A stretch of 63,422 nt of DNA, filler included, from Rhabdomonas costata (lineage: Eukaryota): the NCBI GenBank assembly GCA_019059605.1. It is 53 parts of 53 records of this genome, joined end to end, with 100 filler letters (N's around TTAATTAATTAA, not from the genome) between each part and the next. Parts side by side here need not be neighbours in the genome. Positions count along the whole stretch, not along the records: positions 1 to 1,099 come from JAHMHO010028694.1; 52 more parts are not named here. One strand, written 5' to 3'. Below the pieces are notes generated by a model. The model ran no database searches. It was not told the origin of the DNA and saw only the letters and a program-made list of their open reading frames with translations. Below are positions 1 through 47,851 of this stretch, in pieces (the first letter of the stretch is position 1; the number at the start of each line of letters is the position of its first letter). The translations under genes were made by a program, and so were the position numbers.

Positions 1-1
1 G

Positions 2-454
2 GTTGGTTGTGTAAAGATTGATGATGAACTTATAATATTATCAGAAAAATTACAATCAGATGAACCGTTTTTCTCTAAACATCCAAATACAACATTGAAT
101 GCAAGTATTGTATTAGATCAAATAAAACATACTGCACATTTGGTTGCAAATAAAGATATAAAAAAAGATGATGAAATTTTTGTTCATTATGGATTTTCTT
201 ATTGGTATGGTACACAAGTGGCAAAACAACTTGTAGGTGATCGATATCCTGATCTAACATATGATTATTTATGGAAATACCCATCTATTATAAATTATTT
301 TAAATTATTTTATGAGAACATAGATACGATAAAATGTAGTAAAAAACGAAATGAAGTTGTTTTATTATTCAAAGATAAAGCAGCACATTTGACTCATCCA
401 TTACCACAGTTAAATCATATGAGTTTTGATAAAAAAATCTATATAGACGAATAA
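2..454 (+). CDS. SET-domain protein, NCLDV-like (5'-truncated)
   Basis: Frame is open from base 2 to TAA at 454. It has the SET C-terminal signature NA...AHLVANKDIKKDDEIFVHYGFSYW. Intronless and very AT-rich. Confidence 0.75.
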   Translation, partial: VGCVKIDDELIILSEKLQSDEPFFSKHPNTTLNASIVLDQIKHTAHLVANKDIKKDDEIFVHYGFSYWYGTQVAKQLVGDRYPDLTYDYLWKYPSIINYFKLFYENIDTIKCSKKRNEVVLLFKDKAAHLTHPLPQLNHMSFDKKIYIDE

Positions 455-459
455 AATAA

Positions 460-491
460 AAAATATTGAAAATCATGATTTTCAATATTTT
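460..491. terminator. Perfect 32-bp palindrome between convergent genes (candidate bidirectional hairpin 3'-end signal)
   Basis: AAAATATTGAAAATCA|TGATTTTCAATATTTT lies between the + strand stop at 454 and the - strand stop at 490-492. Confidence 0.6.
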
Positions 492-867
492 AATTTGATA
501 TTGATTTATTTTGTTTATGTGTTTTTTTTATTATTCTACCAAATAATTTTACTAAATCACCATCACCGTCTGGATCATACCTTATCAATACATTTCCTCT
601 ATTTTCTAATATACGTTGACGTCTTTCTTCATATTCTTTATTTCTATCTTTATGATTCCATTCATCGATTTCTATGATTATTTTATGTTCTGGTAAATAA
701 ACATCAACTCTATATATGTCTATCACATGTTGAAATGTATATTTTATATCAATTTCATTAAAAAATATTTCAAGATGTTTTATTGTTTCTGCTTCTTTAC
801 AAAATATTTTTTGTTTTATATTTATATTTAACATGGATGATATTTCGTCTGTATATAGATGAAACAT
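490..867 (-). CDS. PD-(D/E)xK (DUF559/Vsr-like) endonuclease of the type common in NCLDVs and Polintons
   Basis: Motifs FQHVIDIYRVDVYLPEHKIIIEIDEWNH-KDR...YEERRQ...LIRYDPD. Complete, intronless ORF. Confidence 0.75.
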   Translation of the reverse strand: MFHLYTDEISSMLNINIKQKIFCKEAETIKHLEIFFNEIDIKYTFQHVIDIYRVDVYLPEHKIIIEIDEWNHKDRNKEYEERRQRILENRGNVLIRYDPDGDGDLVKLFGRIIKKTHKQNKSISN

Positions 868-1099
868 ATATATACAAATATAAATTATGTATCACATCCA
901 AACGCCGTAATAAAAAAATATAAGATGAAATATTTTATATAAATAAATTTGTTATATCTTTTAGATGTAGTATATCTTAATATCTATAAGATATTGAATA
1001 TATATTTGATCTTACATATAAGATTAAATTTAAAAAGTATATCTGACTAAATAAATACTTAAATACAAAGATATATATGATATTATGATCCCAAAACAA

Positions 1100-1199: not shown

Positions 1200-4100
1200 C
1201 CCATCATTGGGGTTGGGTCACCCTGGCTTTGTTTTTTTGTTGCCACCAGTGCTGAGCGTGGGGTGAGAGTACCCCTACTTACACATCGAAAGGTAGGGGG
1301 AGCAGGAAACAGGGTGCAAGCCCGTAAAGCGCGAGCCTCATGTCAGATTGTTTCTGAGAAAGGAAGGCAATCTTCCGAAGACGGTCTCTTTGTCCGGACC
1401 CGCACAAAGTCAAGCGCAGTGACATGTTTGTGAGCGAGGGGGGGGTTCACGTCTCTCCAATGAAACGTTCAACGTTTAACAGAATAATACTCTTCATAGC
1501 TCATCGAAAAATGATCACACTGAGCAATATCCCTGGGCGATGCCGCTCTGGAAATCTATAGAATCATCACCAAACCAGGGTTGGTCCGCGGCACACCATC
1601 CCTATATTGTCGCTATGATGAAGCACCACGGACCCTTAAGCACTTGTCCACCGAGCCGCACCAGTATCGGTTCCGGTTTCGATTCCGGCTTCCGCTTTGG
1701 AAAAACGCTGGATTCAAATGCAGCGCACCACATGCTGCAACTAGCCCAGGGGAATTGCAAATTACGGCTTTTCCTTGTGGAGGTCCGCAACAGAAACCAC
1801 TTAGCAGCTGTTATACTTTGGCAGTACAATGCAAGTATAACGTTGTTGCATCCTATAAAGTTTTCACACATATGTCATGGTAACGTCAAGCACTTCTTGT
1901 TTTGGAGTTTTTCCTAACTTCTGCTGAACGTATTCTTTGGCCTCGCTTCCTCGTCTTTACGGCATGACAACTTTATATACGGTAAACTATACAAACGTCA
2001 GTGTATCGTCTAACGCGCCGTGCGGGTTTGCAACTTTCGCGTCATCAGGGATCGAAGCGGAGGGGGGGGGGCGGTTGGGCTCCCTTCCTCTTCGCCGTCT
2101 GCTCAGCCTAATCGTAGCCACGTAGCCCATCGTAGCCTCATCGCCCTGCTAGAAGCGGCAATGTTTTAAAGAAGAAGGAAGAAACCATCGACTTCACGCA
2201 GAACGTCCCAAAATGAAGAAAGAGGTACACCTGCCCCGATATTGTGAGGTGGATCAGGAAGCACGCACCGAACGGGGGAAGGGTGACCCCCACCACACNN
2301 NNNNNNNNNNNNNNNNNNNNNNNNNNNNNNNNNNNNNNNNNNTTAATTAATTAANNNNNNNNNNNNNNNNNNNNNNNNNNNNNNNNNNNNNNNNNNNNGG
2401 GTTTGACAGGAGATTTCGCAGCTATTTTTGGGTTCGTGAGCGTAAAGCTGAACCTCCGTTGATCTCCACACAGGGTATATCAATGACCACTGCTTTCACT
2501 ATGAATATTGGCTCTACGCTCCAGCTGTTCTCAGGAAAGCGTGCCGCCTTTTTCCCGTTTGCACTTAAATTCCTGTTGCCTTTCTCTTAAGGATCCCCAC
2601 GTATCCTTTTATGGATAGGAGCGGCACGAGCGACTGACCCGCTCGAAGGCCGTGGGGACACCTTGAAAAGTTGGAACCGCAGGCTTTGCTGGCCAGGAGC
2701 AATGGTGATGTTGAACCGGAGAAGGTAGGCCGCCCACTCCGTCTCATATATTCTGAACGGTCCCCCTGGAATAGAAGAAGGATAGGATCATAGCGCATGA
2801 CAGCCATCCTGAAAACCAACACGCCACCGCATGCTTCTCTTCTCTTCTCATCGGGGAGAGCTATCAAAAGGGACTCTCCTGGAAAACGGGGTGCAGCTAC
2901 TTGGAAATGTGCTAAAAGCCGGGCAAGACATAATCACATGCTCAGAAGGTTCACGTTGATACAGTATTCCTAACTGACGGAGAGCTGGAAATCCAGGCTA
3001 CACGACGTTGACGAACATATCCTCGGATTCGCATACCATAAAAAGTTCCCACAAAACTGAGTGTGGCCCCCTTCATCAAATGAGACCACAAACGCTGCAG
3101 CGCGGAGTTGAGGAGGGAGGGGGGAGAGCTTTGACAATCTCGGGGCAGATCGAGTATTGAGGCCACCCATATCACATGCACTCATCCACCATTGGATTTC
3201 ATCTCAGTTTCTTAATTTCATTTGAATGTTCGCCAGCGCAAAGAGAGAGCATAGCACCTCGGAAGGCAAACTGTAGAACGGGCCGAAGCTCTGCCGAGAG
3301 GTTCGCAATGAGTGGGCCCAGAGTGGTATTAAACCACAGCTGGAAAAGCTCGTTCTGTGCCGTGTCCTGACAGTAAAACACCTCACCTCACTACGGGAAG
3401 TCACCCCCACCCAAAACCAAAAAATGTTCCACCTGCTATCCACCGCATACTACGGCCAAGTCTGTAAGCATACATACAGCACGTTGCACAACCAACCNNN
3501 NNNNNNNNNNNNNNNNNNNNNNNNNNNNNNNNNNNNNNNNNTTAATTAATTAANNNNNNNNNNNNNNNNNNNNNNNNNNNNNNNNNNNNNNNNNNNNTTT
3601 GTGGTGCGGGGGGAGCATGGCGTCGCAGGGCAGCATCACGCCTGCAGGGGGGACACCGGCACGAGGAGTGCCTGTCGTCGCCATGGCGGCAACAGCGCCC
3701 CCAGTGAAGATGTTGCTCTGAGAGTGAGTGTCGGCCAGGGAGTGTGTGAGAGCCGATGGTGCATTTATCGCTGGGTGACCTTGCCGGTCTGTTAGCAGAC
3801 TTTTTTCACTGTGTGTGTGTGCGTGTGCGTGTGCATGCGTGCCAATGATGGATGTAGCTTCCAAATGACATTGGCAAAATAGAAAAAAGGATCAAGGGTA
3901 AGCGGCTGAGGCCCGGCAGGGTACCATGTAGCCAGAGCCCGAGGAGGAGTTCAGCGCGGGAAGCATTCGTGGAGAGGTAACCCCACCCGCCTCAGCCTGT
4001 GACCACAAGGAAAAAAGAGCTGCACATCCACCAACCACCCGCAATTCAACACGCCAAGGGTGCGTTTCCCCAAGAGGGAAAATCGAGGTCCCTTTCTGTC

Positions 4101-5201
4101 AGGGGAAGTCCTCCATCAGGCTGGTGCCAGCCTCAAGTCGTGTTGCCGAGTATCAAACACCGCTCTCCTTCCCCTTGGTGGTGGTGGTGTGTGTGCGTGT
4201 GTGTGGAACACGCCACAGCACACCGCGCCAAGGCGCCATGTGTGTGCACGTTCTGGAATGGAAAGGACCACCAACGCGTTCGACACTTCCAATGCCAAAC
4301 AACAAACAACCAGAGGACAGGGCATGGGCGCGAGGAGCGGGGTGTGAGGTCCATACACACCGCTAAGGTCGGCGAAGGGGAGGAGAAGTACCGCAGCGTT
4401 CGCGGAGACGCCGCGCTCCCGGCGACACCCGCTTCGGACTGAATCTAAGCAGGAGTAGGGTGTGCTGAGCGAGAAACATCGTGTGCGTCTTGAGAGGGTT
4501 GTGAGGGAGGTGACAGGGATGGTCAGAGCTTGAAATAATTGAGAGAACGCCAGAAAAGCTTGTGGCTGCCCTTGATGCCTCAATCGAGCCATTATCGGGG
4601 CTTTTTGAGACCGCTTCGCCCTTTGCCCGATGAAAGGTTTCCAGGGGACATACGTAGTAAATATTAGCGGCGAAGGGCGAAGCGGTCCCAAAAACCNNNN
4701 NNNNNNNNNNNNNNNNNNNNNNNNNNNNNNNNNNNNNNNNTTAATTAATTAANNNNNNNNNNNNNNNNNNNNNNNNNNNNNNNNNNNNNNNNNNNNGGTT
4801 GGTGGGTCAATGGTGGATTCGGATCCTTTCAAGTAAGCACGCCGTATGGAGTCGGGCTGCAGTCGAGATAGACGGAGGGTTTTAATGACAGGGCTCCAAT
4901 GACCAGGTGGTCACAGTGGAGCAGGTTGACATCGCCGTTTGTATAGGTGATGGTCCATGGTGTTCTCCACCGCCACTGCATGGAGTTGAGTGCGTAGAGG
5001 TCAAGACGGATTGACCAGCAGGAGGTTGGCAGCCACGGCGTTGAAGAAGGCTGATGGAGCGCTGATGCGGGCCGGATGTCGTGGTGTCTCTGAACCATGC
5101 GGGCCAGTGCGCAGAGGCGGTGATGGCCTGTGCGGGATCAGCGCAATAGCCACGGTGTAGTACGGCGAGGAAGATCTACCTGCACCGGTTCGTCATGGTT
5201 T

Positions 5202-5880
5202 CTACCCAGAGGGCAAAGAAGAGGGACCCCTCCAGCGTTTCATTTGGGCATGAGTCCAGTCCATTACCTCCTCCATGTATAGAATCGCGGCGCAGGGCTG
5301 GGACAAGGCCATCTCTGTCAGCTGTGCAAAGATCAGCGTTAGGTTCACGATTCGGATGATGGAATTCAGGGCCTTGGTGAAGCTCTCTAGCACGTGGGGG
5401 GCCTGATCTGTGGCCGCTGAGAGCGTGAAACTAGGCCACCAGGAAGCAACTAACACTGCCAATTGGCAGTATCTCCTCGTCGAACTGCAATGGGTTGTGT
5501 TGCCAAGCACTTCTTAGTGCAACTGGCAGTTGAGCACAAAGAAGAGGAGGTTCAGTTAGCCAGCTGCTTCAAACGCAGGGCGGTTGCAGAGGAGGGTGGC
5601 GTCGTCAGAGTGTGATGGGGCATCGACATTCATCTCCACAGCCACAAAGTATGGTGCAATGGCACCACAGGCCCGCGTCCCAGAGCTACTGCACCGCCGG
5701 TATGACAGGTGGGACTGCGCGGATGTGGATACAAGAACGGGCGGCGATGGCACATCCGCCAGCACGGCCGGACAAGATGGTTTGATTTGATCCCTGCGAT
5801 ATGGAGATAAGTGGCACGGGCTTCCCCCAAATGATGGCCAATTTTCAGTACTCCATAGACCGAGTCATAGGTCGATGCGT
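5202..5880 (-). pseudogene. Possible decayed non-LTR retrotransposon reverse transcriptase
   Basis: Fragments in different frames fall in RT order: YDSVYGVLKIGHHLGEARAT, a VLA/GCAIA segment at the QGCPLS position, HSDDATLL (YADD-like), then KALNSIIRIVNLTL...AAILY. Broken by frameshifts and stops. Confidence 0.3.
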
Positions 5881-5994
5881 GCCCCCCCCCACAANNNNNN
5901 NNNNNNNNNNNNNNNNNNNNNNNNNNNNNNNNNNNNNNTTAATTAATTAANNNNNNNNNNNNNNNNNNNNNNNNNNNNNNNNNNNNNNNNNNNN

Positions 5995-7092
5995 GTGCTG
6001 CTGTTGGCAGCCCAGCGGGGTCGCCGCCCTGCAGCAGCGACCTGGTGCAGCATGGGGCCTCGCGAAGTGTGAGTAGGTCGGGGTCAACGAGAAACGAGGA
6101 CCCGCTGAGGACTTGTACCACGCGGCCTCGAAACACTCCTTCCTAGATGGGAAGGATGCGCCAGTTTCAGAGCAAAGCTGAAGGGAGACATGATGGTTCA
6201 ATCCATTCAGTCAAAGTGCCGTTACCGGCATCGACGGAACACTTCTGTTTTCTTTCCGCGTGTATATGCGCACAAAATTTTCCATTCACTCCACAACAGA
6301 CTTCCTAACATGGGCAGGGGGGGCCCCCTGTCCAGGGTGCGCGGTGCTCATCAACTGGCCTTCATTCATTCAATGCATTCAGAGTGAGTGACATTCGAAG
6401 GGTGAGTACAATGGGGAAAGGGAGTAAAGAAGAAATCAACGGAAAATAACCAAGTCCGTCAAAATAGCGAGAAGATAGCACAACGGGGAAAGAAAAAGTG
6501 CATGGACAGTGAACATTTCATGGAGAAAAGAGAAGTACAAACCGAAATTTAAACGCAGCTCTTGTCTAAGGTCGAAAGGTCGATGCAGTTTTTGTGCAAA
6601 AGAGATGTTCAACCCCTTCATTTTCTGAGACACCAAACTTGCGCTCATAAAAAGCAATTCAGCGGCAAAAACCTCTTGCCTCCACGTAGCAACCAATTCT
6701 CAAAAAAAAGTCGGTGTGTGTATGGGTGTGTGCCGCGGACGTCGTTGTGCACCTTGGCGGCTTTCAGGAGGGACCAGAACCCCGCACCGCATGCAACGGC
6801 GGTCCTCTGCGCCTCCGCCAGCTCTGGCAGGTTGGGGTGCAGCCCCACAACCCTGGCCAGCCCACGACTGACCAAAGTGTGGGCCAAGCTCTCCGCCCTC
6901 TCACTGCCACCGCTGCTGCTCACCACACGGTACAAATCCCCACAGATATCAAAGCTCTGGTGGGCGTAGTGCAAGTCCAGCCACAGCTCGGCCACCTCCT
7001 TCGGGGGCTGTGCAGCACCCGCTGCTGCTACCGCTTCGGAAGCCACTGCTGCTGTCGGGCGAAGCCAGGAGTACAGCCCCTCACCCCAAAAC
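5995..7092 (-). CDS. Staphylococcal-nuclease-domain (Tudor-SN-like) protein, two exon fragments (~7092-6753 and 6142-5995)
   Basis: SLAHTLVSRGLARV...LAEAQRTA...GFWS resembles the end of an SN domain. After AAG|gtgcac...tag|, EGVFRGRVVQVLSGSSFLV resembles the start of the next SN domain. Confidence 0.5.
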
Positions 7093-7868
7093 NNNNNNNN
7101 NNNNNNNNNNNNNNNNNNNNNNNNNNNNNNNNNNNNTTAATTAATTAANNNNNNNNNNNNNNNNNNNNNNNNNNNNNNNNNNNNNNNNNNNNGGGGGGGT
7201 GGAGGGAGGTAGAGGGTGCGGACCAGGGATGTTCTTGAAAGTGCACAAAGAATGTTGTGGGGATGGCCCCGTATGGATATAGCTGAGACCACCGGTGCCT
7301 GGACCAAGCTTTGCTTCCCTAAGCGTTTGTCTGAGGGGGTTGAGCATGTCGACGGGACTGTCGGTTTCTGAGAGCTTTTCTACCTCAGGGGCGCTTCAGC
7401 TTCCCATGGGCTTCCTATAGAATAATTAGTGGGACGATGTTTCCAGGATGTCTTGGGCCGCGCAGCACGGCTGAGCTGCCCAAGATCCAAGGTCATTGGA
7501 TTTTTGGCTTTAAGCACCACGGTTACCGGGTAAATCGCCACAATGTTCGCAGTTCGGAAGGGAAGCAGAGCGTTCAGCAAAAGTTTATAGGGTGAGTCAT
7601 GATTTGTATTCAGTTTGGGTTGCATCCCTATTTTTAGGGCCACAGTTGTGGCTTTGGTTTTCGGTATCGCTTTTGATTTTGGGGTGTGTTTGACGTCGCT
7701 TTGTGTACACTTGTGAAGTGAGCATCGAAATAGAAAGCGGAACTATGCACAGAAGCGAGGGCGTCGGTTTCAATACATGTGCGCACCTGTGGGCAGGCAC
7801 ATAGAGCCACAGATGAACCCGATTCCTATCTCCCGGTGTGTGTGTGTGTGTATGTGTGTGTGCTGCAG

Positions 7869-14001: not shown

Positions 14002-17000
14002 GTTTCCATGTGCGATCCCTCGATTTTCAGTTGCGGCGTTTCTTTGAAATTCCGCCAAATACACCAAAAAAGTGCATATAACATGGTTCAGAGTAAAAAA
14101 AGATATGGGCACTGCGGCACAAGCACAGGAGTTTTTGAAGCGGATGGGTAGCAGTACCAAAACACAAAAAACAATAAAGGAGAATCGCGCGCGAGAGAGA
14201 GAGAGAGAAGGGGGATGAGCAGTGTTCTGAGTGAGCACAAACGTCACAGAGGAAAACAGGCGGGACACAATGACACACACACCNNNNNNNNNNNNNNNNN
14301 NNNNNNNNNNNNNNNNNNNNNNNNNNNTTAATTAATTAANNNNNNNNNNNNNNNNNNNNNNNNNNNNNNNNNNNNNNNNNNNNTTGTTTGTTGTAATGTG
14401 CATGCCTCCGAGATGAGTCCTCCCGTTGGCTCCCTCGTTCCCCCACTGACTTGGGCTACAGGTTGTACGCAAAAACTCACTAGAAGCTACAGCTGATTGT
14501 TGTTTAGCTTCGCCTCGCAGACCTCGGAGGCTGGGCAGGAGGAGTGCGGAGATCCAGGCCCTCAGAATGACAAGGAACCAGCACAAGGGGGCGGGGTCGC
14601 CGCTCCAGAGTGACGGTCCCCCCAGACTCTGTCATTGGGCTCCATGCGCTAGAGTTTCGGGTAAACCCGGCGGAGGAAGGCCGCAGCATTTGAAAGGTTG
14701 AGGGGAGGAGGCAGCTACACACAGTTTTGCTTCCCTTTGCTTTAAATGAAAGGGTGCAAAAAAATGGGCGAGACGAAAAAAATAAACGGCGGAATGGAGC
14801 CTAAGTCAAAGCGCGCTGCGAAATATGACTGAGGCTAAAGACTAAAGGCTGGATTACCAAAAGAAGGGCAACCGAAGATGAGTTGGAAGTCAAAGCCTAT
14901 TGCAAACTCATTGGTCAGGCTTGCAGGTGACGCCAGCTTCCACACAGCCAGCGAGAAACCCTCGGCATGCTTTCGGGCTGCGTGGAAAATGGAGCGGTAG
15001 CCACGCGTCGGGGCAGCCAAGTATTTCTTTCATGCCCTTGCAAGCAAGCTGCCCGAGCCAAAGAAAAGCCGTTTCTTTTTGAGATGCCCCTTCATCCCCC
15101 GAATACAGACATTCTGTGGTGGAAGCGGAGGTGACCCTTCTTGAAGCTGATATCCGACATTCACTTCAACGGAAAGCTTCTTCCCGACCGGCCAATTACT
15201 GCGTCATGAACGGAAAGGTCCGGAAAGGTCGGCACTGCAGAAAAAACGCACTTCCCAGAAAGTTTCCAGGACTTCCCCAAAAGCGCATAAAAAACGCAGT
15301 AAAAGAGCTGCAGGCGACGTATTTGCACAGATCGACCGCTCCGGGTCCAACTTGCGGTAGAAAACCAAAAACATATACACCACCAAAATAATTCACAACA
15401 GGGGTCTCCTGTCTCTCTCTTAATCTCAGCTCACCCCATTCAAAAAAAACTCCATCAACTCCCCTACAACTCCAACAAAACNNNNNNNNNNNNNNNNNNN
15501 NNNNNNNNNNNNNNNNNNNNNNNNNTTAATTAATTAANNNNNNNNNNNNNNNNNNNNNNNNNNNNNNNNNNNNNNNNNNNNTGTTTGTTTTATTTTTGAT
15601 GTTGCTGTCTGTGCTTTTTTGCTCCTCAAATGGACACTGGCACCCCGTTTGTGCTGCATGCCCTTTGATTGAAAGTTTATCTTGCAAAATTAGATTAAAT
15701 AACCCACCCATACGAACGAACTGACGATCGCCCAAGTGCCCAACGTCAATGGCGTTATCAAAGGAACTGTTCTGTTCGGAGCCATTTTCCTAGGGTTGTG
15801 TTTTGAATTTGTCCGTAGGATTTTTGTGATATCCTCTCTATGGTGGAAGTTCTACGAGATCCGCTACGCCGCTCATTTTGGTATGAAGGATGACTCCGGC
15901 GCTACCATTGATACGGTGTGTGCGTGACTGTTTGAAACGCAAACCGCATAAGTGCCTATTTTTCATCTGGAAAACTTTCGTGGAATGTCGTAACACCTTA
16001 GTGAACCTGCGCGCTTAAGAGAGCCTGAAAGTCTGGGCTGCAGATCATTGCACCATTGGCCAACTGACGGTACGTGGGAGGGCAAATCAAAATAATCCCC
16101 CCACTGAGATGGGGGTGGGATAGCCAGTGGTATTTGGGAGAGGCAAATGCTGAGCTCTGGCGTGCAACTTCGTTGACTGGAACACAAGTACTGTCCGAGG
16201 CACGATTGTTTCATTGTTTCATATGTCGGCGCGGACTTGACGCAAACCCGCAAAATCTGAGTGATAGAAGCGAATGATCAAAAGAGTGAACTCCTGGAAT
16301 GGAATAGCGTTTCATTGTCACCTTCAGCTGTCATCTCGTTTATTCACAACTTTCGCAGAAGTGTACCAAATGCACTTTACCAATTCTTCCCATTCTGTAG
16401 CCGTCCCACGGATATCGGTAGTAAAGAAAAAATAGTGAAAAATTACCTCACACCACCACCATACAAGTTGGGGTGACGAAACGAGCGGCACCTGCCTATT
16501 GCCCTAGGTATACACCTACTCCGACCTACTCCGGGGTGGAAACCCGGACTCCTACCTCCGGTTTGCTTCCTTTGCGCCGGAAAGACCACTTTTTTACCCA
16601 AGGGATCGAAATTCCCTCATGCTGACCCTTTTCAAGCTCTATTCGAGGCCGAAACGGGCATTTTTCCATACACACCACCNNNNNNNNNNNNNNNNNNNNN
16701 NNNNNNNNNNNNNNNNNNNNNNNTTAATTAATTAANNNNNNNNNNNNNNNNNNNNNNNNNNNNNNNNNNNNNNNNNNNNTTTTGGGTGTGAGAGAGAGGG
16801 GAGGGGGTGGCGTTATGGGTCGACTTGGGCTTGGGTTGAATGCCTAGTCTGTGCGCCGAGCGTTTTCGCGGGACCCTCAATGGTCCCGCAAGCTGCAGCC
16901 TGTCCTGATCGCCATGGAACTGCTTGTGTGTCCTTGGGTTTGGACCTTTGTGGCTTCTGTTCCAATAGAGTGAGAGATAACTACCCAAGGGTGATCTCGA

Positions 17001-35975: not shown

Positions 35976-37073
35976 TGTTTGTTGTGGGGGATGCCCCTCG
36001 TACTTGGACAGCACGAACAGCGTCTCCACAAAGTTGTTGAAGAAGAGTCCCCGCTGCTTTGGAAGCAAAACCTTGACCAGTGCACCCTCAGCGAAGCGAG
36101 AAACAACTTTGTCCGGGTCCGCAAGGGTGACCAGAAAGGAAAAAAACAGCGTGCTTCTCCACTTTAAAAAATTCTCCGCCAGAGCCTGTGTCATCAGCAC
36201 CAGGGCAGTGTGGCGAACAAGCACAGAAGGGTCTCCAAAGCATCGCGCAATTACAGAGACATATTTGTCGATGCATCCCGCGTACTCCACTGCCAGGTCG
36301 ATCAGGGAGGCAAGAATGTTCACCTTAACGGTTTCACTGCCAGATTTTTGCAGCTGGTTCACAAAAACGCAAAGGAAGCGTTTCGCGGTGGCATCGCTCG
36401 CGAGGCAAAGCTTGCCCAAAGTAAGGTAAGCGGCGTTCTCCACGCACTGAGAGATAAGCCCCCGACTCTGGAAGATGTGGACCGTGGTGCCTGACGCTTG
36501 AGTCATCTCCTGAGTAAGCTCCATGGAGGTTTCTCTGGAAGGGCTCACATCAGTGCCAGTCTGTACGATTGCGTGCAAGTACGTCTCAACATCTCGAGGG
36601 ATTTTCACCATGTGATGGCCCTTATCTCGCAGTAGCGCGGCCTCTCCAATTACGAGGATGTGCTTGGTCACTGCGGCGTAGACCACAGCGGCATCCATGC
36701 CACGCAAAGTTCCGTGTTTGATAAACTCGTGCAGCTTTTCCTGGGCGTGCTGAAACACGCGCTCCACCTCCTCCTTGGCCTTCTTCTTCCCCAGGATAAC
36801 GACCGCCGACATAGCGTGCGAAATGAGGCTGTGGTGTAAGGTGACCCCCATAATAGCAGTCACCAGGTCACTAGAGAGTTTGCCAGCCTGGTCTGACGGA
36901 AGCTCGACGAGTGTTAGCAGCTTAAGAACCTGGGCCATTACTTCCACCCCGGAAAAGCTCTTTCCAGAGAGCAGTTCGCGGTGGTTCTCATAGCATCGCA
37001 GCAAAATCTCCCTGTCCAGCTTATCACGGTAGACACCACCCAAACTGGCGAGCAGCCCAAAACCCCCACCCCC
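35976..37073 (-). CDS. NCAPD3: Condensin II HEAT subunit CAP-D3 (Cnd1 domain), internal fragment
   Basis: AYLTLGKLCLA...AKR...KVNI...DLAVEY...IDKY...DPSVLVR...ENFLKWRSTLFFSFL...LFFNNFVETLFVL...YEGH. Confidence 0.85.
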
Positions 37074-46500: not shown

Positions 46501-46755
46501 GGCTGGGCGACGCAGGGGAACCGCAGGAAACGGGTTAAGGATCGCGATGTCTTGTCCTTAGGTGTGTGTGTGTCCCAGTATCACTTTCTCCGCTCTTCCA
46601 TATCTCGTTCCTCGGTTCATTCCAGTCATACCCATCTACCTATCTGGCTCTGANNNNNNNNNNNNNNNNNNNNNNNNNNNNNNNNNNNNNNNNNNNNTTA
46701 ATTAATTAANNNNNNNNNNNNNNNNNNNNNNNNNNNNNNNNNNNNNNNNNNNNCA

Positions 46756-47690
46756 TTACTAAAGTGGTATCTAGAACAAGGTTTAGATGTAACCAAAGTA
46801 CACGGTATGATACATTGTAAACGATGTAAAATATTTAAATCATTTGGTGAACTTGTTTGTGATGAACGAAGAAAAGGAGATGTGGACATTAACTACAAAG
46901 TTATAGGTGAAGAGTGTAAAAACATTGGAAATTCTGCATATGGGAGAACATCGATGAACAAAGCAAAACATAACAAAACAACATACGAAGACCAAGCAAA
47001 GTATAAAAAATCTGTTGCTACACTATATTTTAGAGACGCTGAAAAATTCGGTGATCTTTATGAAGTTCAAAAAAGAAAAAGACAAACATATCAAAACATG
47101 CCAATTCATATTTCAACAGCTATTTTACAGTATGCAAAATTGAGAATGTTACAATTTGTGTATGAGTTCTTGTACAAGTATGTTGACCGTGAGAATTTTA
47201 CTTTAATGTACATGGACACTGACAGTATGTACATGGCTTAACAGCAGATAAATTCGAGTATCTAATCAAACCAGAAATGAAATATGAATATATTAAAGAT
47301 AGGAGCTGCTGGTTCCCAAGAAATGATACGAAAGAAAATGAAAAGTATGATAATAGAACTGCTGGTCTGTTTAAAACAGAATTTATCGGAGATGGAATGA
47401 TTTGTTTATCGAGTGAATTATATTATTGTCTTGGTGAACAGAACAAGAAAAATAGGTTTTCTAGTAAAGGAGTACAGAAAAACAAAAACAGCAAACTTTT
47501 AAATTACAAAAATCTTAAGCAAGTACTGTTTTCAAATGTTGACATGACATGTGAAAATACAGGGATGAGACAATTAATGGTTCTATCTATTGGTACAAAA
47601 CATCTAAAACAGGCCTTAGTGCTAAATATAACAAACGAAAAATATTAAGTGATGGTGTATCAACGGCACCGCTAGAAGAAACATATATAA
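46756..47690 (+). pseudogene. polB: Polinton/Maverick-type protein-primed DNA polymerase B, C-terminal half, frameshifted
   Basis: Motifs in three successive frames: LLKWYL, KNIGNSAYGRT, AILQYAKLRML, YMDTDSMY | RTAGLFKTEF, FSSKGV | KRKILSDGVSTAPL. Single-base losses near 47238 and 47573. Confidence 0.85.
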
Positions 47691-47728
47691 AAAAGAAAAA
47701 GTTATTTTTTAATATAGTTTCAATATAT

Positions 47729-47851
47729 ATGAACACTGAATCAAAGCATCTTTTACTTAAAAATCTTTATTATAGCCCAAGAACACAATACACATCTATA
47801 AAAAGTTTGTATGATAATGTTCGTAACAGGGGTATAACCTACGCTGAGGTT
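47729..47851 (+). CDS. Polinton-type rve integrase N-terminus (3'-truncated)
   Basis: MNTESKHLLLKNLYYSPRTQYTSIKSLYDNVRNRGITYAEV resembles the L..lYY.P......LY......IT...V leader of Polinton integrases. Too short for the ORF track. Confidence 0.65.

What the first reader, a model, noticed from the sequence alone, without database searches (positions are those of the whole stretch)
1..1099. Giant-virus-like contig in a euglenozoan-like amplified library; possible host / giant virus / Polinton-like system
Seen: very AT-rich, intronless, densely coding DNA with no internal stops, unlike the roughly 50% GC intron-rich host contigs. It carries SET and PD-(D/E)xK nuclease genes. Known: both families are common in Nucleocytoviricota, and in Cafeteria the pPolB- and rve-integrase-encoding mavirus integrates into the host and depends on the giant virus CroV. 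Inference: this contig and the pPolB-integrase contig at 46754 may be two partners of an undescribed tripartite system, or two parts of one large element. Sharing this window is an assembly artefact and does not show linkage.
Basis: partly seen in the sequence, partly recalled or inferred. Interest (0 to 1): 0.7.

Follow-up and report, generated by a model that had tools for sequence, protein, structure and literature searches.

The report
Giant-virus-like DNA scrap beside eukaryote contigs
A 1.1-kb, extremely AT-rich contig carrying a small DNA-cutting enzyme gene and part of a probable SET methyltransferase gene most likely comes from an undescribed mimivirus-like giant virus caught with a eukaryotic cell, but it is too short to prove this or to link it to any virophage-like partner.

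Summary
The window is 53 unlinked contigs of about 1.1 kb each. Contig 1 (1-1099) has 22.5% GC; 51 of the other 52 have 41-60%. It holds two convergent ORFs. One is the last 150 codons of a probable SET protein, on a sub-threshold Pfam hit with no detectable homologue. The other is an intact 125-aa DUF559/Vsr-like PD-(D/E)xK endonuclease with a confident model. A perfect 32-nt AT-only palindrome fills the 35-nt gap between the two stop codons. Then come 232 nt of 17% GC non-coding DNA.

The nuclease's nearest relatives are Bro-N-nuclease fusions on giant-virus contigs. The best is a 1,021,348-bp record, the published moumouvirus genome length. Prokaryote and phage relatives are few and weaker, but the tree is unresolved. 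The palindrome matches the Mimiviridae "hairpin rule". No bacterial terminator was found and the mimivirus early promoter is absent.

Verdict: a fragment of a divergent NCLDV, probably Imitervirales-like, or of its mobilome (confidence 0.65). Free or integrated cannot be told.

The "tripartite system" is untested speculation. The 46754 contig has family-B polymerase motifs spread over three frames, an unverifiable integrase and twice the GC3. The rest of the assembly could not be searched. This is a new member of a known kind, of low to moderate interest.

The parts
2..454 (+). 3' part (150 codons plus stop at 452-454) of a probable SET-domain protein gene. Residues 26-64 match the C-terminal end of the SET domain. 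Residues 65-150 are an extension with no recognisable family. The 5' part lies beyond the contig end.
   Evidence: ORF. Pfam SET E 9.3e-4, 20 bits against a cut-off of 22.4, profile positions 69-105 of 105. Atlas score 0.95, with 27 of 30 hits in the SET set. Motif alignment with 6 metagenomic SET ORFs. No homologue found. Structure model unusable, pLDDT 43.5.
460..491 (.). Perfect 32-nt palindrome (16-nt arms, no spacer, 12% GC) that fills the 35-nt gap between the two convergent stop codons and overlaps the nuclease stop codon by 2 nt. Proposed bidirectional 3'-end hairpin signal of the Mimiviridae 'hairpin rule' type.
   Evidence: Inverted repeat I9, 100% complementary. The RNA folds on both strands: -12.1 and -10.2 kcal/mol, z -2.5 and -2.4. 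The longest arm in 1000 shuffles was 13 and the expected count is 1.6e-4. The same kind of AT-only intergenic palindrome occurs in giant-virus loci: 20 in 11 loci. The hairpin rule itself is from passages of PMC4402537.
490..867 (-). Complete gene for a 125-aa stand-alone DUF559/Vsr-like PD-(D/E)xK endonuclease. It lacks the N-terminal Bro-N domain that most of its relatives carry.
   Evidence: ORF. DUF559 E 3.3e-9, 37 bits against a cut-off of 20.6. 888 HMMER relatives, best E 3.7e-18 at 48% identity. Columns E25, D55, D68, E69, H72, E80, R83, R96 and P99 are invariant in 20 sequences. AlphaFold pLDDT 89.3. Best PDB fold match is the homing endonuclease I-Bth0305I catalytic domain, E 1.3e-5, followed by AbaSI/PvuRts1I, NGO0050 and Vsr.
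868..1099 (.). Non-coding stretch at 16.8% GC upstream of the nuclease gene. It presumably holds that gene's promoter and perhaps a divergent one for a gene beyond the contig end. No exact copy of the mimivirus early promoter octamer.
   Evidence: No ORF of 60 aa or more. GC and motif scan. Sigma-70-like sites on the whole contig number 4 against 14.9 +/- 3.6 in shuffles. No Rfam family.
46754..47851 (+). Separate contig, NOT shown to be linked. It is 30.5% GC and carries a family-B DNA polymerase C-terminal region readable only across three frames (46756-47238, 47223-47645, 47588-47851). In the third frame the reading runs on, with no stop, into a 41-residue N-terminus of an unidentified protein (Met at 47729).
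   Evidence: ORFs and sequence. Motifs Kx3NSxYG and YxDTDS were read directly in the translation. No Pfam, PHROG, PDB or IMG/VR relative. GC3 is 0.22-0.26 against 0.10-0.12 in contig 1.

Best explanation
Contig 1 is a short fragment of the genome of an undescribed, divergent giant virus (Nucleocytoviricota, most likely Imitervirales/Mimiviridae-like), or of DNA recently derived from one. It was co-assembled with a roughly 52% GC eukaryote.

It carries two convergent genes. One encodes the C-terminal part of a probable SET-domain lysine methyltransferase. By analogy with viral SET proteins (recalled, not tested) it would methylate host chromatin or other proteins. The other encodes an intact stand-alone Vsr-like/DUF559 PD-(D/E)xK endonuclease. 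This domain is multiplied in giant-virus genomes as Bro-N-nuclease fusions and is structurally closest to a homing endonuclease, so it is probably a selfish or DNA-targeting nuclease.

The two transcripts would end at one shared AT-only palindrome that forms a hairpin on either strand. This would be a bidirectional version of the Mimiviridae hairpin signal for 3'-end cleavage and polyadenylation.

Shown: composition, ORFs, nuclease family, conserved catalytic columns and fold, the palindrome and its non-random nature, and the taxonomic skew of the nuclease's relatives. Inferred: viral origin, hairpin function, enzyme targets. Whether the DNA was a replicating virus, an ingested or attached particle, or an integrated copy cannot be told.
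For: (1) Composition. Contig 1 has 22.5% GC against 41-60% in 51 of the other 52 contigs, and GC3 of 0.10-0.12 against 0.47-0.64 in host ORFs. Mimiviridae are more than 70% AT (PMC4402537 passage).

(2) Nuclease relatives in viral contigs. An alignment-based scan of IMG/VR gave 146 confirmed relatives, of which 78 loci were kept. Twenty of the 78 carry GVMAG names. The best (44% identity, 73.9 bits) lies in a 1,021,348-bp record, which is the published moumouvirus genome length (PMC3542560 abstract).

(3) Neighbours of the best loci. All 5 of the best-scoring non-GVMAG loci that I annotated (L001, L004-L007) have giant-virus neighbours. These include Capsid_NCLDV, Pox_VLTF3, Poly_A_pol_cat, EsV_1_7_cys and an intein-bearing ribonucleotide reductase.

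(4) Controls. One genome for each of 185,579 prokaryote species gave only 11 loci, and the best ranks 55th of 89 at 53.9 bits. Only 4 of 50,697 phage records match, at 48 bits or less and 58% coverage or less. The best PHROG hit is E 4.5e-5.

(5) Architecture of relatives. 33 of the 40 top HMMER hits scanned carry Bro-N (40 of the 150 listed, out of 888).

(6) Palindrome. A perfect 16+16 nt AT-only palindrome sits exactly between the convergent stops. It exceeds all 1000 shuffles, whose maximum arm was 13. Eleven giant-virus loci (147 kb) hold 20 such perfect hairpins of 12 bp or more. All 20 are intergenic and 8 of 20 lie within 40 nt of an ORF stop. Ten of the 11 prokaryote loci hold none.

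(7) Bacterial signals. There is no bacterial-type terminator, and sigma-70-like sites are fewer than in shuffles. I saw no Shine-Dalgarno-like purine run before either candidate ATG (read).
Against: No NCLDV hallmark gene is on the contig, and none could be looked for elsewhere because no whole assembly is held.

The SET fragment has no relative in IMG/VR or anywhere else searched. Its nearest Atlas clusters with recorded taxa are eukaryotic.

The nuclease sits on a very long branch (1.89) in an unresolved, long-branch-prone 10-row set. That set holds 3 giant-virus rows but also 6 Lachnospiraceae/Eubacterium rows. DUF559 is a widespread, mainly bacterial family, and the best structural match is a phage-encoded homing endonuclease.

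There is no exact copy of the mimivirus early promoter octamer anywhere on the contig.

The two collection scans used slightly different patterns (8 against 9 positions), so the counts are not strictly comparable. IMG/VR contains only sequences already called viral.
Confidence: 0.65

Rival explanations
1. The contig is giant-virus-derived DNA integrated in the host's nuclear genome (an endogenous viral element), not a virus present as a particle or infection. This is a sub-case of a viral origin, but it changes the biology.
For: The contig comes from an assembly dominated by eukaryotic contigs. The other low-GC contig carries a polymerase readable only across three frames, as decaying insertions are. 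Nothing on contig 1 shows that it is free.
Against: Both contig-1 genes are intact in what is visible, and the nuclease keeps all 9 invariant columns. GC3 of 0.10-0.12 shows no drift towards the host's 0.47-0.64. Neither contig end shows a junction with roughly 50% GC DNA.
Confidence: 0.2
2. The contig comes from an AT-rich bacterium (symbiont, prey or contaminant) or from a phage or prophage. The nuclease would then be an ordinary DUF559/homing-type endonuclease.
For: DUF559 is common in bacteria (family description). Six Firmicutes rows fall in the same starred 10-row set as the window in the tree. There are weak PHROG hits, including one to 'homing endonuclease'. The best PDB fold match, I-Bth0305I, is phage-encoded (the phage origin is recalled). 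One source names a hit 'prophage antirepressor-like protein'.
Against: The best prokaryote locus ranks 55th of 89, and only 11 loci were found across 185,579 species genomes. Only 4 of 50,697 phage records match, and weakly. There is no phage match for the SET fragment. There is no G+C-stem terminator, and promoter-like sites are fewer than chance. I saw no Shine-Dalgarno-like run upstream of the nuclease ATG. 22.5% GC with GC3 of 0.10 is extreme for bacteria.
Confidence: 0.12
3. The contig belongs to a small satellite of a giant virus (virophage, polinton-like virus or transpoviron-like element), possibly the same element as the polymerase contig at 46754.
For: Both are the only low-GC contigs among 53. 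Elements that parasitise giant viruses are AT-rich and use their host virus's expression signals (recalled, not tested).
Against: GC is 22.5% against 30.5%, and GC3 is 0.10-0.12 against 0.22-0.26. No capsid, packaging ATPase or protease gene is visible on either contig. The nuclease's relatives lie on large contigs of up to 1 Mb with giant-virus core genes. The polymerase contig has no detectable relative at all. There is no physical link.
Confidence: 0.06
4. The contig is nuclear or nucleomorph DNA of a second, very AT-rich eukaryote (prey or contaminant).
For: The Atlas neighbours of the SET fragment that have recorded taxa are eukaryotic, commonly diatoms.
Against: A 35-nt gap between convergent intronless genes. 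A DUF559 nuclease whose relatives are viral or bacterial. An AT-only perfect palindrome at the 3' ends.
Confidence: 0.05

Closest known systems
Bro-N / DUF559-nuclease fusion proteins of Mimiviridae and giant-virus MAGs, such as the 313-aa ORF at L001:9413-10351 in the 1,021,348-bp record whose length equals moumouvirus
   Same: The nuclease domain shares 44% identity over 96 residues, and all 9 invariant columns are kept. The genomes are AT-rich, and AT-only palindromes lie in the intergenic DNA.
   Different: The window's protein is stand-alone at 125 aa and has no Bro-N domain. There is no ORF upstream of it on the same strand that could supply one, whereas 33 of the 40 top relatives scanned have Bro-N. 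It is very divergent: best identity 48%, and a tree branch of 1.89.
Homing endonuclease I-Bth0305I catalytic domain (PDB 3r3p) and the Vsr-like PD-(D/E)xK nucleases (AbaSI/PvuRts1I N-domain, NGO0050, E. coli Vsr)
   Same: Same fold: Foldseek E 1.3e-5 to 1.6e-5, TM 0.52-0.75, for a model of pLDDT 89.
   Different: Only 22-24% identity. The gene is free-standing between other genes and is not visibly inside an intron or intein, so homing is not shown. Its target is unknown.
Mimiviridae 'hairpin rule' 3'-end signal (PMC4402537, passages read; the original paper, Byrne et al. 2009, is cited there and was not read)
   Same: A palindrome immediately after the stop codons that forms a hairpin, is defined by structure and not by sequence, and sits in an AT-rich genome.
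   Different: Here one perfect 32-nt palindrome would serve two convergent genes. No transcript data exist for it. The linked early promoter octamer is absent.
Viral SET proteins of chloroviruses (vSET; recalled, not retrieved here) and small SET ORFs on AT-rich marine metagenome contigs such as L090
   Same: The C-terminal SET signature, including the conserved Tyr, is present.
   Different: No significant similarity outside that motif. There is an 85-residue C-terminal extension that the small SET ORFs lack. The Asn-His dyad is not canonical in either possible register. The N-terminal half is missing.
CroV / mavirus / Cafeteria, and polinton-like elements
   Same: An AT-rich giant-virus-like contig and an AT-rich contig with a family-B polymerase occur in one eukaryotic assembly.
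   Different: No linkage, no capsid genes and no verifiable integrase. The polymerase is broken across three frames. Composition differs between the two contigs.

Membership tests
Nucleocytoviricota (giant viruses) | Hallmark genes: major capsid protein, A32-type packaging ATPase, VLTF3, family-B DNA polymerase, RNA polymerase subunits | not testable with these tools
   The 1.1-kb contig holds only the SET fragment and the nuclease. No whole assembly is held. The sequencing-run and earlier-findings tools were not open.
Nucleocytoviricota (giant viruses) | The genes' nearest relatives lie in NCLDV genomes | tested here: inconclusive
   Nuclease: the best hits are NCLDV contigs, and prokaryote and phage hits are few and weaker. 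The tree, however, is unresolved and has Firmicutes rows in the same set. SET fragment: no relative in IMG/VR.
Mimiviridae-type gene expression signals | AT-rich genome (more than 70% AT) | tested here: met
   77.5% AT. Criterion from a PMC4402537 passage.
Mimiviridae-type gene expression signals | Hairpin-forming palindrome at transcript 3' ends | tested here: inconclusive
   Met at sequence level: a perfect 32-nt palindrome at both stop codons, beyond all 1000 shuffles, and the same kind of palindrome is found in giant-virus loci. No RNA data were available to show 3' ends or polyadenylation there.
Mimiviridae-type gene expression signals | Early promoter octamer AAAATTGA upstream of genes | tested here: not met
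   No exact copy on either strand of the contig, only six sites with one mismatch. Only one complete upstream region is visible, and the passage read ties the motif to early-expressed genes only.
DUF559 / Vsr-like PD-(D/E)xK endonucleases | Profile match above the curated cut-off | tested here: met
   PF04480: 37 bits against 20.6, E 3.3e-9.
DUF559 / Vsr-like PD-(D/E)xK endonucleases | Conserved acidic and histidine catalytic columns | tested here: met
   D55, D68, E69 and H72 (and E25, E80, R83, R96, P99) are invariant across 20 aligned sequences that include the window. Their catalytic role is assigned by analogy and was not assayed.
DUF559 / Vsr-like PD-(D/E)xK endonucleases | Vsr-like alpha/beta nuclease fold | tested here: met
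   Model pLDDT 89.3. Foldseek hits: 3r3p E 1.3e-5, AbaSI 5e-4, PvuRts1I 6e-3, NGO0050 0.018, Vsr 0.049.
Homing endonucleases (I-Bth0305I type) | Gene lies within a self-splicing intron or intein, or next to its own cleavage target | tested here: not met
   The gene is free-standing between a convergent gene and non-coding DNA. There is no Rfam intron. The target site is unknown.
SET-domain lysine methyltransferases | Profile match above the curated cut-off over the whole domain | tested here: inconclusive
   PF00856: 20 bits against 22.4, covering only profile positions 69-105 of 105, because the rest lies off the contig. Atlas score 0.95 to SET clusters. No PDB sequence hit. Model unusable.
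SET-domain lysine methyltransferases | Cofactor and catalytic motifs (Asn-His dyad; C-terminal Tyr motif) | tested here: inconclusive
   The Tyr (Y63) is conserved in 7 of 7 aligned sequences. The dyad reads Lys-His or Asn-Thr depending on register.
Polinton / virophage-like element (contig 46754-47851) | Protein-primed family-B polymerase, rve integrase and jelly-roll capsid genes | tested here: inconclusive
   Family-B motifs B and C were read in the translation. There is no profile, PDB or IMG/VR hit. The reading needs three frames. The integrase catalytic core and any capsid genes would lie off the contig.

The most novel reading that the evidence does not exclude
The AT-rich contig is from a deeply divergent, undescribed Imitervirales-like giant virus that infects, or is integrated in, this uncultured eukaryote. 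In the same reading, the co-assembled 30% GC polymerase contig is a decaying virophage or polinton-like partner, making a three-way system like Cafeteria-CroV-mavirus.
Probability: 0.07. Interest if true: 0.6.

Novelty: new member of a known kind. Interest (0 to 1): 0.27.

Why it matters
If the viral origin holds, this scrap marks a giant-virus lineage whose two visible genes have no close relative in about 5.8 billion protein clusters. It is also physically associated with a particular uncultured eukaryote, which makes it a host-virus pointer worth following in the full assembly. On its own it adds only one more divergent copy of a nuclease domain that is already abundant in giant viruses, plus a tidy example of one palindrome apparently serving two convergent genes. 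It does not establish infection, integration or any virophage partnership.

Tried and rejected
Attempts that led nowhere:
- Word-indexed protein searches found nothing for either protein: near lengths; SET fragment, longer proteins.
- Single-protein scans of IMG/VR found nothing for the nuclease, the SET fragment or the polymerase fragment.
- The SET alignment A2 against IMG/VR matched 115 pattern sites, none confirmed.
- The metagenome scan with the SET fragment gave 7 loci. They share only the motif used as the search pattern, so they show SET membership of the motif, not kinship.
- PDB sequence search found nothing real for the SET fragment or the polymerase fragment (chance-level rows with E about 1).
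- The AlphaFold model of the SET fragment from a 7-row alignment had pLDDT 43.5 and was not searched.
- Rfam found nothing in the whole window.

- The whole genome, earlier findings, sequencing runs and search by locus handles.

Considered and rejected or left open:
- An exact mimivirus early promoter: absent.
- A bacterial intrinsic terminator reading of the palindrome: rejected, because no terminator-like site with the required G-C pairs and T tail was found.
- The repeated AGATAT-like words in 868-1099: seen but not tested against chance, so nothing is claimed.
- Host phylum: the Atlas lookup of the Cnd1 ORF says only 'eukaryote'.
- The nuclease tree was hoped to separate viral from bacterial ancestry. 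It did not, because of a long branch, an open fork and only 97 columns. Eighteen of the 89 loci were dropped before the tree because their match was shorter than 75 residues or duplicated another row.
Full report
WHAT THE WINDOW IS

The 63,422-base window is not one molecule. It is 53 contigs of 1095-1118 bp joined by N44-TTAATTAATTAA-N44 spacers. The finding covers exactly the first contig, 1-1099. That contig has 22.5% GC. Fifty-one of the other 52 contigs have 41.4-59.7% GC, and one (46754-47851) has 30.5%.

The mid-GC contigs are eukaryotic. Of 46 stop-to-stop ORFs of 140 aa or more taken from the other contigs, 3 hit Pfam at E <= 1e-3 and 43 hit nothing. The three hits are ankyrin repeats, VPS13_N and condensin Cnd1/Cnd3. 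The Atlas neighbours of the 366-aa Cnd1 ORF are all eukaryotic. I could not test 'euglenozoan', 'intron-rich' or 'amplified library'.

ANATOMY OF CONTIG 1

There are two convergent ORFs: 2..454 on + (150 aa, open at the contig's 5' end) and 490..867 on - (125 aa, complete). Both show the GC1 > GC2 > GC3 gradient of real coding sequence, at 0.42/0.25/0.12 and 0.38/0.20/0.10. Together they cover 831 of 1099 nt.

The 35-nt gap between the two stop codons is almost wholly occupied by a perfect palindrome at 460-491, with 16-nt arms, no spacer and 12% GC. It overlaps the nuclease stop codon by 2 nt. Positions 868-1099 are non-coding at 16.8% GC. Rfam finds nothing in the window.

THE NUCLEASE

- Family: Pfam DUF559 scores 37 bits against a cut-off of 20.6 (E 3.3e-9). 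There are weaker hits to the PvuRts1I-like N-domain and to MTES_1575.
- Relatives: an exhaustive HMMER search of 1.84 billion representatives gave 888 proteins at E <= 1e-3, 56 at E <= 1e-10 and none at E <= 1e-30. The best is E 3.7e-18 at 48% identity. The word-indexed search had found nothing.
- Architecture of relatives: of the 40 top hits I scanned (40 of the 150 listed), 33 carry an N-terminal or internal Bro-N domain next to the nuclease domain. The window's protein is the nuclease domain alone.
- Conserved columns: in a 20-sequence alignment, E25, D55, D68, E69, H72, E80, R83, R96 and P99 are invariant, so the active-site columns are intact.
- Fold: AlphaFold2 with that alignment gives pLDDT 89.3 and pTM 0.75. 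Foldseek against the PDB puts the catalytic domain of the homing endonuclease I-Bth0305I first (3r3p, E 1.3e-5 to 1.6e-5, TM 0.52-0.75). Next come the Vsr-like domains of AbaSI and PvuRts1I, the DUF559 protein NGO0050, and E. coli Vsr.

More precisely, it is a Vsr-like/DUF559 endonuclease with a homing-endonuclease-like fold.

WHERE THE NUCLEASE'S RELATIVES LIVE

Viral contigs. Scanning IMG/VR with the alignment gave 146 confirmed relatives, of which 78 loci were kept.
- Twenty of the 78 loci carry GVMAG names. That label stands for giant-virus metagenome-assembled genomes (abstract of PMC13524828, search listing).
- The best locus, L001 (44% identity, 73.9 bits), lies at the end of a 1,021,348-bp record. 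That is the genome length published for Acanthamoeba polyphaga moumouvirus (abstract of PMC3542560). Its 313-aa ORF is identical to HMMER hit P0026.

Neighbours. I annotated the neighbours of the five best-scoring loci without a GVMAG name (L001, L004-L007; 71 ORFs). All five are giant-virus DNA:
- L004 has Capsid_N, Capsid_NCLDV and EsV_1_7_cys.
- L007 has Pox_VLTF3.
- L006 has the mimivirus-type poly(A) polymerase catalytic subunit.
- L005 has an intein-bearing ribonucleotide reductase.
- L001 has three Bro-N paralogues. It also has several DUF families that I recall as built from mimivirid proteins; that point is recalled, not tested.

Controls.
- The same alignment against one genome from each of 185,579 prokaryote species gave 11 loci, mostly Lachnospiraceae and Eubacterium MAGs. 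The best ranks 55th of 89 by tblastn bits, at 53.9.
- tblastn against 50,697 phage genomes matched 4 records, at 48 bits or less and 58% coverage or less.
- The best PHROG hit is E 4.5e-5.

Caveats.
- The two collection scans used patterns of 8 and 9 positions, so their counts are not strictly comparable.
- IMG/VR holds only sequences already called viral.
- A maximum-likelihood tree (71 rows, 97 columns; 18 of the 89 loci were dropped for short or duplicate matches) puts the window on a long branch of 1.89. It falls inside a starred but internally open 10-row set containing L001, two GVMAG rows (L002, L009) and six Firmicutes rows. The tool itself warns of long-branch joins.

The nearest rows by path and by identity are viral. 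The tree does not exclude a bacterial or phage affinity.

THE SET FRAGMENT

The evidence is thinner.
- Pfam SET is below its cut-off (20 bits against 22.4, E 9.3e-4). It covers only profile positions 69-105 of 105, matched by residues 26-64. The rest of the domain would lie off the contig.
- Atlas features score 0.95 to SET clusters, and 27 of 30 hits fall in the same family set.
- No homologue appeared in the word-indexed searches, IMG/VR, the PDB or phages.
- A metagenome scan returned 7 loci that share essentially the eight-residue pattern used to find them. Six of them align as small SET proteins. The window's conserved Tyr (Y63) is in register, but the Asn-His dyad is not canonical in either possible register.
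- Residues 65-150 have no recognisable family.
- The structure model was unusable at pLDDT 43.5.

I accept 'probable SET C-terminal half'. It says nothing about origin.

THE PALINDROME

Its 16-nt arms exceed the longest arm in all 1000 shuffles of the contig (maximum 13). The expected number of such sites is 1.6e-4. As RNA it folds on both strands, at -12.1 and -10.2 kcal/mol for 71 nt, with z of -2.5 and -2.4.

In Mimiviridae, transcripts end and are polyadenylated at hairpin-forming palindromes that are not conserved in sequence. The AT-rich Pithovirus does the same (PMC4402537, abstract and passages read).

As a check I counted perfect hairpins of 12 bp or more with loops of 8 nt or less:
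- Eleven giant-virus loci (147 kb) hold 20.
- All 20 are intergenic with respect to ORFs of 80 aa or more.
- Seventeen of the 20 have 17% GC or less.
- Eight of the 20 lie within 40 nt of an ORF stop.
- Ten of the 11 prokaryote loci hold none. The eleventh, at 56% GC, holds 2.

The simple bacterial scan finds no intrinsic terminator on contig 1. It finds fewer sigma-70-like sites than in shuffles, 4 against 14.9 +/- 3.6.

Against a mimivirus-type expression system, the early promoter octamer quoted in PMC4402537 does not occur exactly anywhere on the contig. Only one complete upstream region is visible, however.

BEST EXPLANATION AND ITS LIMITS

Taken together, the evidence consists of:
- extreme AT content;
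- tight convergent intronless genes;
- a shared AT-only 3' palindrome;
- a nuclease domain whose detectable kin are concentrated in giant-virus genomes;
- weak bacterial and phage signals.

From this I read contig 1 as a fragment of an undescribed, divergent NCLDV, most likely Imitervirales-like, or of DNA recently derived from one (confidence 0.65).

The likely workings are inferred, not shown. The two genes would be transcribed towards each other, and their mRNAs would be cut and polyadenylated at the shared hairpin. The nuclease would act as a selfish or DNA-targeting endonuclease that has lost or never had the Bro-N domain. The SET protein would methylate lysines of host or viral proteins, by analogy with chlorovirus vSET (recalled).

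I cannot tell whether the DNA was an infecting virus, an ingested or attached particle, or an integrated copy. No NCLDV hallmark gene could be looked for.

THE 'TRIPARTITE SYSTEM'

The contig at 46754-47851 does encode family-B polymerase motifs (Kx3NSxYG and YxDTDS, read in the translation). The reading needs three frames: 46756-47238, 47223-47645 and 47588-47851. It is therefore decayed or mis-assembled.

It has no hit in Pfam, PHROGs, the PDB or IMG/VR. 'Protein-primed' is therefore unverified. The 'integrase' is a 41-residue N-terminus that cannot be assigned.

Its GC3 (0.22-0.26) is about twice that of contig 1 (0.10-0.12). This argues weakly against one element. Nothing links the two contigs to each other or to the host. 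The model is not excluded, but it is unsupported.

For context, a 2021 review names Bodo saltans virus (Mimiviridae, about 1.39 Mb) as the only documented DNA virus of kinetoplastids. It says that viruses of diplonemids and euglenids have not been verified experimentally (PMC8061765, passage read). That would give the finding some value if the host label were confirmed.

VERDICT

This is a new member of a known kind: a divergent giant-virus-like fragment. Interest is low to moderate at 0.27. The decisive work is binning and marker search of the low-GC contigs, read-pair linkage and RNA 3'-end mapping. All of it needs the full assembly and reads, which were not available here.

Noticed in passing
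window 46754-47851: The family-B polymerase reading is spread over three frames, with apparent frame breaks near 47235 and 47590. In the third frame it runs on, with no stop, into the next protein's N-terminus (Met at 47729). This is either a decaying element or assembly indels.
   Followed up: partly
L001:9413-12944 (last 13.5 kb of a 1,021,348-bp viral record): Three Bro-N-domain ORFs (313, 336 and 308 aa) lie in a row near the genome end. Pfam reports a nuclease family (PvuRts1I-like) only on the 313-aa ORF; the 308-aa ORF resembles the nuclease-bearing hit P0018 (81% identity). This is a locally amplified family.
   Followed up: partly
L004:3037-7134: The giant-virus major capsid protein appears as two separate ORFs, Capsid_N at 3037-3744 and Capsid_NCLDV at 4535-5377, about 800 nt apart. 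An HNH-endonuclease ORF follows at 5461-7134. This suggests an intron or a mobile insertion in the capsid gene.
   Followed up: no
L004:2543-2569, 16111-16137, 16273-16298: Three intergenic copies of a G+C-richer palindrome share the core GGGAAACC...GGTTTCCC. The other giant-virus loci have AT-only palindromes, so this is a repeated hairpin element specific to that contig.
   Followed up: no
L005:1-2025: A ribonucleotide reductase large subunit interrupted by an intein on a giant-virus contig, next to a DUF7197 gene and the nuclease relative.
   Followed up: no
window 868-1099: The words AGATAT/ATATCT (6 occurrences each over both strands) and TAAGAT/ATCTTA (5 each) recur in the non-coding stretch upstream of the nuclease gene. 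They were not tested against chance.
   Followed up: no
window 35976-37073: One host contig is a single open frame from end to end: 366 aa, condensin Cnd1/Cnd3-like, GC3 0.64. At least this stretch of the host gene has no intron.
   Followed up: no
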